A stretch of 64,000 nucleotides of DNA, taken from positions 63,178,001 through 63,242,000 of the forward strand of contig NC_043006.1 in the NCBI RefSeq assembly GCF_006345805.1, written 5' to 3'. This document shows, in pieces, positions 33,741 to 34,032 of the stretch; positions within the stretch are counted from its first letter, which is position 1; each line of letters begins with the position of its first letter. The position numbers were made by a program, and so were the translations under genes. Source of the stretch: Octopus sinensis (Eukaryota). The notes beneath the pieces are model-generated. The model searched no databases and had not been told where the DNA came from. It saw nothing but the letters and a program-made list of their open reading frames with translations.

Positions 33741-34032
33741 ATGGAGATGTACTTGTATAGTAAATGACCTGATCCGAGATCGTGTGCTGGAACGAAAATA
33801 ATTGCAACGTGGAAGGTGGTTATAAGCCATTTCAGAAACAGACAAAAACCGTTAGGTTCACTTCAACATTTAAATCTTATTTGCCAAAATATTTTCGTCG
33901 CTTTGAGACCGCAACCTGTTCTCTGACAAAGCGACGAAAATATTTTGGCAAATTAAATTTAAATGTTGAAGTGAATCGGTTTTGTGTGTTTCTTAAATGG
34001 CTTATAAACACCTTCCACGCTGCAATTGTTTT
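33741..34032. mobile_element. PLE-type terminal fragment forming a fold-back in (TA)n
   Basis: Arms 33795-33905 and 33927-34032; shares its 3' end with 8710-8772. Confidence 0.75.
33880..33930 (-). ncRNA. Minimal type I hammerhead-topology motif with variant core
   Basis: Minus strand reads tttgtca-GAGAACA-g-gttgc-ggtctcaaa-gcgac-GAAA-atat-tt-tggcaaa; all three helices pair. Confidence 0.6.

What the first reader, a model, noticed from the sequence alone, without database searches (positions are those of the whole stretch)
33880..33930. Hammerhead-topology RNA with a compensatory G3-C8 core swap
The minus strand gives helix I tttgtca/tggcaaa, helix II gttgc/gcgac, GAAA, a palindromic helix III (aaatattt, dimer type) and a UU site. 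The CUGANGA core instead reads GAGAACA, plus one extra G. Known: C3 and G8 form a tertiary Watson-Crick pair and the G3-C8 double swap can rescue activity. Both positions are swapped together here, which suggests selection rather than decay; A4 may be a copy-specific mutation. The fold-back starts right at this motif.
Basis: partly seen in the sequence, partly recalled or inferred. Interest (0 to 1): 0.75.

Follow-up and report, generated by a model that had tools for sequence, protein, structure and literature searches.

The report
Swapped-core hammerhead in a retroelement family
This is a damaged copy of a roughly 209-base repeat, present well over a thousand times in an animal genome, that carries a hammerhead-shaped RNA with two paired core letters swapped (G3-C8 instead of C3-G8); the repeat is likely a helper-dependent Penelope-like jumping gene and the swapped RNA probably still cuts itself, but cutting has not been tested.

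Summary
Observation confirmed. The motif lies in a ~209-bp dispersed repeat (family A) whose core is G3-C8: 1,466 exact pattern matches against 0 for canonical C3-G8. A4 is private to this copy. The extra nucleotide, palindromic helix III and head-to-head fold-back are known features of Penelope-like elements (PLEs). Agreement among family A copies is only descent; they decay neutrally. Selection shows between lineages: an older sister family keeps G3-C8 (40 of 61, C3-G8 none), and an autonomous PLE family switches between G3-C8 and A3-U8 (71 of 74 Watson-Crick; one event). Another PLE family has U3-A8. Best reading: a non-autonomous PLE derivative with a minimal type I hammerhead that would cleave weakly, as a dimer or with protein help. 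The window copy is likely dead (U4A, fold-back). No autonomous partner and no sign of cleavage were found. I found no natural G3-C8 or A3-U8 in the searchable papers, but the key paper (Lunse 2017) was not held, and this scan earlier noted G3-C8 cores in phage and protist DNA. New variant of a known kind.

The parts
33880..33930 (-). Minimal type I hammerhead motif with G3-C8 core pair; this copy also carries a private U4A change
33924..33930 (-). Helix I, 5' strand
33916..33923 (-). Core positions 3-9 (G3=33923, A4=33922, C8=33918, A9=33917) plus the extra G between 9 and 10.1 (33916)
   Evidence: extra nucleotide is a min-HHR feature in PMC4209133
33897..33915 (-). Helix II (5 bp, G10.1-C11.1) with 9-nt loop
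33887..33896 (-). G12-A14, 6-nt palindrome A15.1-U16.1 (predicted intermolecular helix III) and U17; predicted cut between 33887 and 33886
   Evidence: sequence; dimer role inferred from PMC4209133
33880..33886 (-). Helix I, 3' strand
33740..33930 (-). Family A element copy, lacking about 17 nt at its 5' end, running to the long 3' end and a (TA)n tract
33927..34029 (+). Inverted, 5'-truncated second copy joined head to head through a 4-nt overlap; ends at the short 3' end. A read-through RNA is predicted to fold into a long hairpin that takes up half of the hammerhead
   Evidence: RNAfold -134.8 kcal/mol
33700..33739 (.). (TA)n-rich tract at the 3' end of the minus-strand copy (likely target site)
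34030..34375 (.). (TA)n-rich tract at the 3' end of the inverted copy (likely target site)
8710..8773 (+). Solo 3' tail fragment of the same family (the part between the two 3' end points), between (TA)n tracts; no hammerhead
   Evidence: 85% over 62 nt

Best explanation
The motif is a G3-C8 variant of the minimal type I hammerhead, fixed in a ~209-bp repeat family that is likely a non-autonomous Penelope-like element, and it would cleave weakly as a dimer or with protein help; the copy in this window is likely dead. Shown: family size, sharp 5' boundary about 60 nt upstream of the predicted cut, two 3' end points, (TA)n flanks, frequent head-to-head partial copies, G3-C8 in two related families and a G3-C8/A3-U8 switch in an autonomous PLE. 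Inferred: the RNA is transcribed from just upstream of the hammerhead; an RT/GIY-YIG protein of an autonomous PLE nicks a (TA)n tract and starts reverse transcription at one of two internal sites; at the 5' end the cDNA often switches template or folds back, which gives the inverted partial copy. Because most copies keep the whole hammerhead, most templates were uncleaved RNA. Inferred for the ribozyme: G3 pairs with C8 as C3 pairs with G8, which keeps the 2'-OH of nucleotide 8 in place as general acid; the palindrome supplies helix III between two copies. Selection acts on the master elements, not on inserted copies. In the window copy, U4A breaks the uridine turn and the fold-back would pair away helix III and the 3' strand of helix I.
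For: Family core. Ends: 47 of 53 segments from the hammerhead-blind search start at reference positions 1-28; 107 and 62 of 184 segments end at 200-209 and 141-157; 70 of 126 long 3' ends are followed by (TA)3 within 14 nt; 53 of 109 loci are head to head. Sister family B, copies 52-68% identical to an A copy (one A-like row left out): with 3 and 8 left free, 40 of 61 are G-C, 0 are C-G, the rest scattered (hand count); by majority or plurality letters it has C7, a G-C for U-A change in helix I, one more pair in helix II and a 4-nt palindrome. Family C, 3' UTR of a PLE with an RT YLDD motif, a two-CxxC linker and a GIY-YIG-like end: 62 A3-U8, 9 G3-C8, 2 G3-U8, 1 U3-C8, 0 A3-C8 of 74 (hand count); in 29 distinct aligned copies 3-8 is the only one of 17 pairs with a two-sided change (15 G-C, 12 A-U, 2 unpaired). 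U3-A8 in 7 of 50 GIY-YIG loci of another family. Literature: min-HHR anatomy and dimer cleavage (PMC4209133); C3G/G8C partly rescues a PLE hammerhead, cleavage needs the protein, uncleaved RNA is the main template, the tail lies between two RT start sites, AT-rich targets (PMC11167929); inverted 5'-truncated copies and (TA)n targets (PMC8557442 passages).
Against: No cleavage data. No pile-up of 5' ends at the predicted cut: 2 of 53 start within 1 nt of it, both at fold-back junctions. No autonomous partner: 11 PLE protein pieces hit 2 of 159 loci (129 A, 30 B), neither as a sense ORF joined to the element; the element gave only two 14-nt matches in 30 GIY-YIG loci and none in 50 downstream regions. 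Core positions are not better kept than the rest within family A. The family C switch is one event: A3-U8 copies form one clade, support 0.95. Family B was found with a pattern that fixed the other core letters. The extra nucleotide is G, whereas the published consensus is H. RNAfold cofolding of two monomers did not give the palindrome-paired dimer. The count of 1,466 is inflated by passive copies: 16 of 129 sampled loci are one insertion carried in a larger young repeat.
Confidence: 0.68

Rival explanations
1. The hammerhead fold is kept as a binding or packaging signal for the PLE protein, and no longer cleaves at a useful rate; the 3-8 pair is kept for structure only.
For: Most inserted copies keep sequence upstream of the cut (47 of 53). 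A minor subfamily carries several hundred bases of extra 5' sequence. In the anole PLE, ribozyme mutants did not affect insertion in vitro and no RNA ends were seen at the site (PMC11167929). Min-HHRs cleave poorly in vitro (PMC4209133).
Against: The 3-8 pair forms in the active conformation (recalled from the full-length hammerhead structure; its role is stated in PMC8495972). Families A, B and C all keep G5, A6, A9, G12-A14, A15.1-U16.1 and a non-G at 17.
Confidence: 0.2
2. It is a non-LTR retrozyme: tandem arrays are cut to monomers, circularised and copied by rolling-circle reverse transcription.
For: Unit of about 200 bp with a type I hammerhead; tandem copies exist (L004, L027, L068). 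Retrozymes occur in molluscs (PMC7229834 passages) and are proposed to be PLE derivatives (bioRxiv 10.64898/2026.07.22.740005, part 1).
Against: Only 5 of 129 loci have tandem pairs against 53 of 109 head to head. Copies share one 5' boundary and two 3' boundaries instead of permuted ends. The ribozyme is the minimal type with an extra nucleotide.
Confidence: 0.08
3. The short copies are by-products of an autonomous PLE: reverse transcription starts just behind its upstream hammerhead and runs to the start of the mRNA, so the 209 bp are a solo pseudo-LTR with the ORF start.
For: The published internal start sites lie about 110 nt into the ORF, just behind the hammerhead (PMC11167929). The element has an ATG-led frame open to its 3' end (seen by eye).
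Against: No copy with a PLE ORF joined upstream or downstream in 129 loci. The CxxC-linker PLEs of this genome have the hammerhead in the 3' UTR, far from the RT ORF start.
Confidence: 0.12
4. Chance look-alike or decayed canonical hammerhead, or a fold-back DNA transposon (MITE) end.
For: The window copy is mutated at position 4 and lies in a long inverted repeat; Rfam finds no hammerhead.
Against: 0 canonical against 1,466 G3/C8 matches; covariation in family C; junctions of the inverted copies vary from locus to locus and the two arms end at different points.
Confidence: 0.03

Closest known systems
Minimal type I hammerheads (min-HHR) of metazoan Penelope-like elements (Cervera and De la Pena 2014, PMC4209133; main text parts 1-2 of 4 and supplement 2 parts 1-2 of 3 read)
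   Same: Type I topology, extra nucleotide between 9 and 10.1, G10.1-C11.1, palindromic helix III, NUH site, thousands of mostly solo copies, pairs on opposite strands.
   Different: Core pair is G3-C8 (and A3-U8 in family C). The paper reports C3-G8 and U3-A8; none of the motifs in its Fig. S3 text has G3-C8 or A3-U8 and no cephalopod is listed. Extra nucleotide is G, not H.
Poseidon PLE of Anolis (PAc) and its protein-assisted hammerhead (Frangieh et al. 2024, PMC11167929; parts 1-2 of 4 read)
   Same: Two 3' end points (tail), AT-rich targets, insertion of uncleaved RNA; the engineered C3G/G8C double mutant partly restores cleavage.
   Different: There the swap is a laboratory mutant in an autonomous element; here it is natural and fixed in a non-coding family.
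Natural U3-A8 hammerheads (Perreault et al. 2011, PMC3088659; section 8 and passages read)
   Same: Natural covariation of the 3-8 pair.
   Different: Only U3-A8 is named; those motifs are not PLE min-HHRs.
Non-LTR retrozymes (PMC7229834 passages; bioRxiv 10.64898/2026.07.22.740005 part 1 of 5)
   Same: Short non-autonomous repeats with a type I hammerhead, probably PLE-derived.
   Different: Defined by tandem arrays and circular RNAs; family A is mostly solo or head to head (tandem 5 of 129).
Neptune-type PLEs with a CxxC linker and (TA)n targets (PMC8557442 passages)
   Same: Family C and the U3-A8 family have RT, two CxxC-like motifs, C-terminal GIY-YIG and (TA)n flanks.
   Different: Clade assignment rests on these motifs, not on a tree with named references. 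Family A encodes no such protein.

Membership tests
Hammerhead ribozyme (type I) | Three helices around the core, helix I open | tested here: met
   Helices I and II fold; 18 intact motifs in 17 of the first 30 loci pass my descriptor; helix III is a palindrome only
Hammerhead ribozyme (type I) | Canonical C3 and G8 | tested here: not met
   0 canonical against 1,466 G3/C8 matches
Hammerhead ribozyme (type I) | Watson-Crick pair between 3 and 8 | tested here: met
   G-C in families A and B; G-C/A-U switch in family C
Hammerhead ribozyme (type I) | U4, G5, A6, A9, G12-A14, A15.1-U16.1, H17 | tested here: met
   Family majority has all; the window copy fails at U4
Hammerhead ribozyme (type I) | Match to an Rfam hammerhead model | tested here: not met
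   (150 of 166 rows listed)
Hammerhead ribozyme (type I) | Self-cleavage after position 17 | not testable with these tools
   No assay; no pile-up of genomic 5' ends at the site
PLE min-HHR | Extra nucleotide after A9, G10.1-C11.1, palindromic helix III | tested here: met
   definition (extra letter G departs from consensus H)
Penelope-like element | RT plus GIY-YIG ORF in the element or a partner sharing its 3' end | tested here: not met
   No linked ORF in 129 A and 30 B loci; sample is small against the family, so a rare partner is not excluded
Penelope-like element | Inverted 5'-truncated copy beside the element | tested here: met
   53 of 109 loci and the window itself
Penelope-like element | Optional 3' tail (two 3' end points) and AT-rich or microsatellite targets | tested here: met
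   the tail is about 58 nt, longer than the published 30-40
Non-LTR retrozyme | Tandem arrays of hammerhead-bearing units | tested here: not met
   5 of 129 loci
Non-LTR retrozyme | Abundant circular RNA monomer | not testable with these tools
   Only assembled contigs were available

The most novel reading that the evidence does not exclude
Hammerheads of Penelope-like elements in this animal run on any Watson-Crick pair at 3-8: G-C, A-U and U-A are each fixed in multi-copy families, and one autonomous family was caught switching G-C to A-U. G3-C8 and A3-U8 are then active natural ribozyme cores not yet described in animals, and every census built on CUGANGA misses thousands of ribozymes per genome, possibly also in PLE lineages now called hammerhead-free.
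Probability: 0.4. Interest if true: 0.62.

Novelty: new variant of a known kind. Interest (0 to 1): 0.46.

Why it matters
The C3G/G8C swap is the classic laboratory test of the hammerhead's active fold. Here it is the natural state of a family with more than a thousand copies, and a second family shows the pair switching with almost no mismatched copies. That is evolutionary evidence that PLE hammerheads are under selection for the catalytic conformation, which bears on the open question of whether these weak ribozymes do anything for the element. It gives natural matched pairs (G3-C8 and A3-U8 in one backbone) for a direct assay. It also shows that Rfam and CUGANGA descriptors miss whole families, so counts of genomic hammerheads and claims of their absence need a search with positions 3 and 8 left free. 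The window copy itself is an ordinary dead insertion.

Tried and rejected
Rfam scans gave only microsatellite or hairpin matches. Search for an autonomous partner: GIY-YIG loci, close same-strand pairs of the motif and 40 more stretches, full-length ORFs: none found. A shared 5' extension in 5 loci proved to be microsatellite-rich sequence with no PLE protein match. The G3-C8 pattern hit that led to family C (L115) was spurious, a mutated stretch upstream of the true core; that copy is C3/C8. My regex mis-read L181 as A/C; it is G/C. The pattern had one letter too many and gave 0; corrected. The loose pattern gave 59 matches against 106 in the control, so it is no evidence by itself. Expression: no RNA holder listed; the four runs laid were contigs only guessed to be RNA, which show neither ends nor level. 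In them no other letter reached 5% at G3 or C8 (organisms coded A and B); I treat this as weak. Family C was not checked in other organisms, and depth was not compared between families. Canonical C3-G8 motifs in this genome were seen only as single candidates (L095 antisense; L034 by eye) and are not counted. A3-U8 in L049 is a single copy. Cofolding did not reproduce the dimer. Papers not held: Lunse 2017, Przybilski and Hammann 2007, Nelson and Uhlenbeck 2008; supplement file 1 of PMC4209133 could not be searched. These may already report G3-C8 or its rates.

Full report
Observation. The piece at 8710-8773 is a tail fragment of the same repeat. Rfam lists no hammerhead for the window (150 of 166 rows shown) or for an intact copy. 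The window lies in a 2.72-Gb animal genome rich in microsatellites; its repeats look octopus-like to me, which is recalled and not tested.

The family (A). A DNA search gave 2,588 first-look candidates. Aligned copies define an element of about 209 bp, with G3 at reference position 25 and the predicted cut after 61. A 33-nt pattern with G3/C8 has 1,466 exact matches; the same pattern with C3/G8 has none. A looser helix II pattern gave 634 matches that the first excludes, mostly family A variants. In copies found with the region downstream of the ribozyme, 33 of 36 have G3 and C8; in the first search 35 of 38; none has A4 (duplicates L007 and L088 and the query loci left out). Core positions differ from the majority in 12 of 708 cells (1.7%) and other non-CpG positions in 224 of 11,292 (2.0%), so inserted copies decay neutrally and their agreement is no evidence of selection. 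The count also includes passive copies: 16 of 129 sampled loci are one head-to-head insertion carried inside a larger young repeat.

Anatomy. 47 of 53 segments from the hammerhead-blind search start at positions 1-28, upstream of or at the core; 2 start within 1 nt of the predicted cut, both at fold-back junctions. 3' ends fall at two points, 200-209 (107 of 184) and 141-157 (62 of 184). 70 of 126 long ends are followed by (TA)3 within 14 nt. 53 of 109 loci carry a head-to-head inverted partial copy (passengers and duplicates removed), 5 of 129 a tandem pair. These features are described for Penelope-like elements: inverted 5'-truncated copies, an optional tail and microsatellite targets (PMC8557442, passages), and two internal RT start sites bounding the tail (PMC11167929, parts 1-2). 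The extra nucleotide after A9, G10.1-C11.1 and the palindromic helix III define the PLE min-HHR (PMC4209133, parts 1-2). So the fold-back at the motif is the normal insertion product, not a property of the ribozyme.

Partner. The genome has many GIY-YIG PLEs (147 matches from 150 candidates scored of 5,029), some with 781-aa RT plus GIY-YIG ORFs. Family A shares no 3' sequence with the 50 sampled, and 11 PLE protein pieces hit only 2 of 159 A and B loci, neither joined to the element in sense without a microsatellite between. The partner is therefore not identified, and PLE membership rests on anatomy.

Selection on the 3-8 pair. Family B is an older relative over the whole length (copies 52-68% identical to an A copy). 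With 3 and 8 left free, 40 of 61 matches are G-C, 8 G-U, 13 other single states, 0 C-G (hand count). Its majority has C7, a sixth pair in helix II, a shorter loop, a 4-nt palindrome, and by plurality a G-C for U-A change in helix I; the search pattern fixed the other core letters, so only the helix I and III features are free of that bias. Family C lies in the 3' UTR of an autonomous PLE (RT YLDD motif, CxxC linker, GIY-YIG-like end below Pfam's cut-off). With 3 and 8 free, 62 of 74 are A3-U8, 9 G3-C8, 2 G3-U8, 1 U3-C8, 0 A3-C8 (hand count). In 29 distinct aligned copies the 3-8 pair is the only one of 17 with a change on both sides, 15 G-C and 12 A-U. The A3-U8 copies form one clade (support 0.95), so this is one double transition, not many. 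A further family has U3-A8 (7 of 50 loci; again by a looser regex). Three non-canonical Watson-Crick states fixed in separate families, with no mismatched master found, are best explained by selection for the pair.

How it most likely works. Inferred: the element RNA starts about 60 nt upstream of the cut, is bound by an autonomous PLE protein and is copied into (TA)n tracts from one of two internal start points; template switching at the 5' end gives the inverted arm (4-nt overlap in the window). G3-C8 would replace C3-G8 in the active fold; the double mutant partly restores cleavage in model hammerheads (PMC8495972, passage) and in a PLE hammerhead, where cleavage needs the protein and uncleaved RNA is the main template. 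Min-HHRs cleave only as dimers and slowly (review PMC6765202, section 11 part 2). That fits copies that keep the whole ribozyme. The window copy is likely dead: U4 is changed (harm inferred; U4C is said to lower activity considerably, PMC3088659 passage) and a read-through RNA is predicted to form a -134.8 kcal/mol hairpin over half the motif. Cleavage is not shown for any copy.

Novelty. Natural U3-A8 is published (PMC3088659 section 8; PMC4209133). Eight searches found G3-C8 only as a laboratory variant (PMC3884650 passage; PMC11167929) and no occurrence of the term A3-U8; the min-HHR alignment in Fig. S3 has neither. Lunse et al. 2017, the survey most likely to hold such variants, was not available. 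Earlier notes of this scan report G3-C8 cores in phages and behind PLE RT genes of other genomes (unchecked); none concerns this sequence or genome. What this case adds is scale, an animal host and a natural switch within one family.

Verdict. Confidence that it is a PLE-type minimal hammerhead family with a fixed G3-C8 pair: about 0.9. That it cleaves: about 0.6. Interest 0.46.

Noticed in passing
window 43558-46987: A 3.43-kb near-perfect palindrome (99.5% self-complementary, centre about 45271 with an 18-nt loop). Could be a real fold-back or a long-read assembly artefact.
   Followed up: partly
L174-L203, e.g. L175:1814-1865: Autonomous PLE family whose 3' UTR hammerhead exists as G3-C8 and A3-U8 subfamilies; A3-U8 as a natural core may itself be unreported.
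   Followed up: yes
L038, L047, L050-L053, L060, L204-L209, L211: Young PLE family with intact 781-aa RT plus GIY-YIG ORFs and a U3-A8 minimal hammerhead in the 3' UTR.
   Followed up: partly
L063, L075, L087-L090, L213, L215, L216, L237, L238, L241, L243, L248, L251, L252: One head-to-head family A insertion rides in a larger dispersed repeat whose flanks are 94-100% identical between loci; the carrier was not identified.
   Followed up: partly
L021, L076, L078, L125, L136: Subfamily of family A with a shared 5' extension of up to about 700 microsatellite-rich bases; also seen as loose ends in contigs. Looks like a 5' transduction.
   Followed up: partly
L049:about 2070 (+); L045 3' UTR; L114:about 4030: Single-copy hammerhead candidates with A3-U8 (L049) or U3-A8 (L045, L114; by eye) and very short or mismatched helix II.
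   Followed up: no
window 20487-21487 and 50762-51748: Two 87% identical copies of a broken transposase gene in opposite orientation; motifs look mariner-like (recalled).
   Followed up: no
window 14065-14659 and 15316-15933; 59691-59974: A 600-bp inverted repeat built of about 140-bp subunits, and a separate 141-bp tandem pair.
   Followed up: no
L138 and L193: Family A copies inserted in (TA)n tracts right behind the 3' ends of autonomous PLEs, consistent with shared microsatellite targets.
   Followed up: partly
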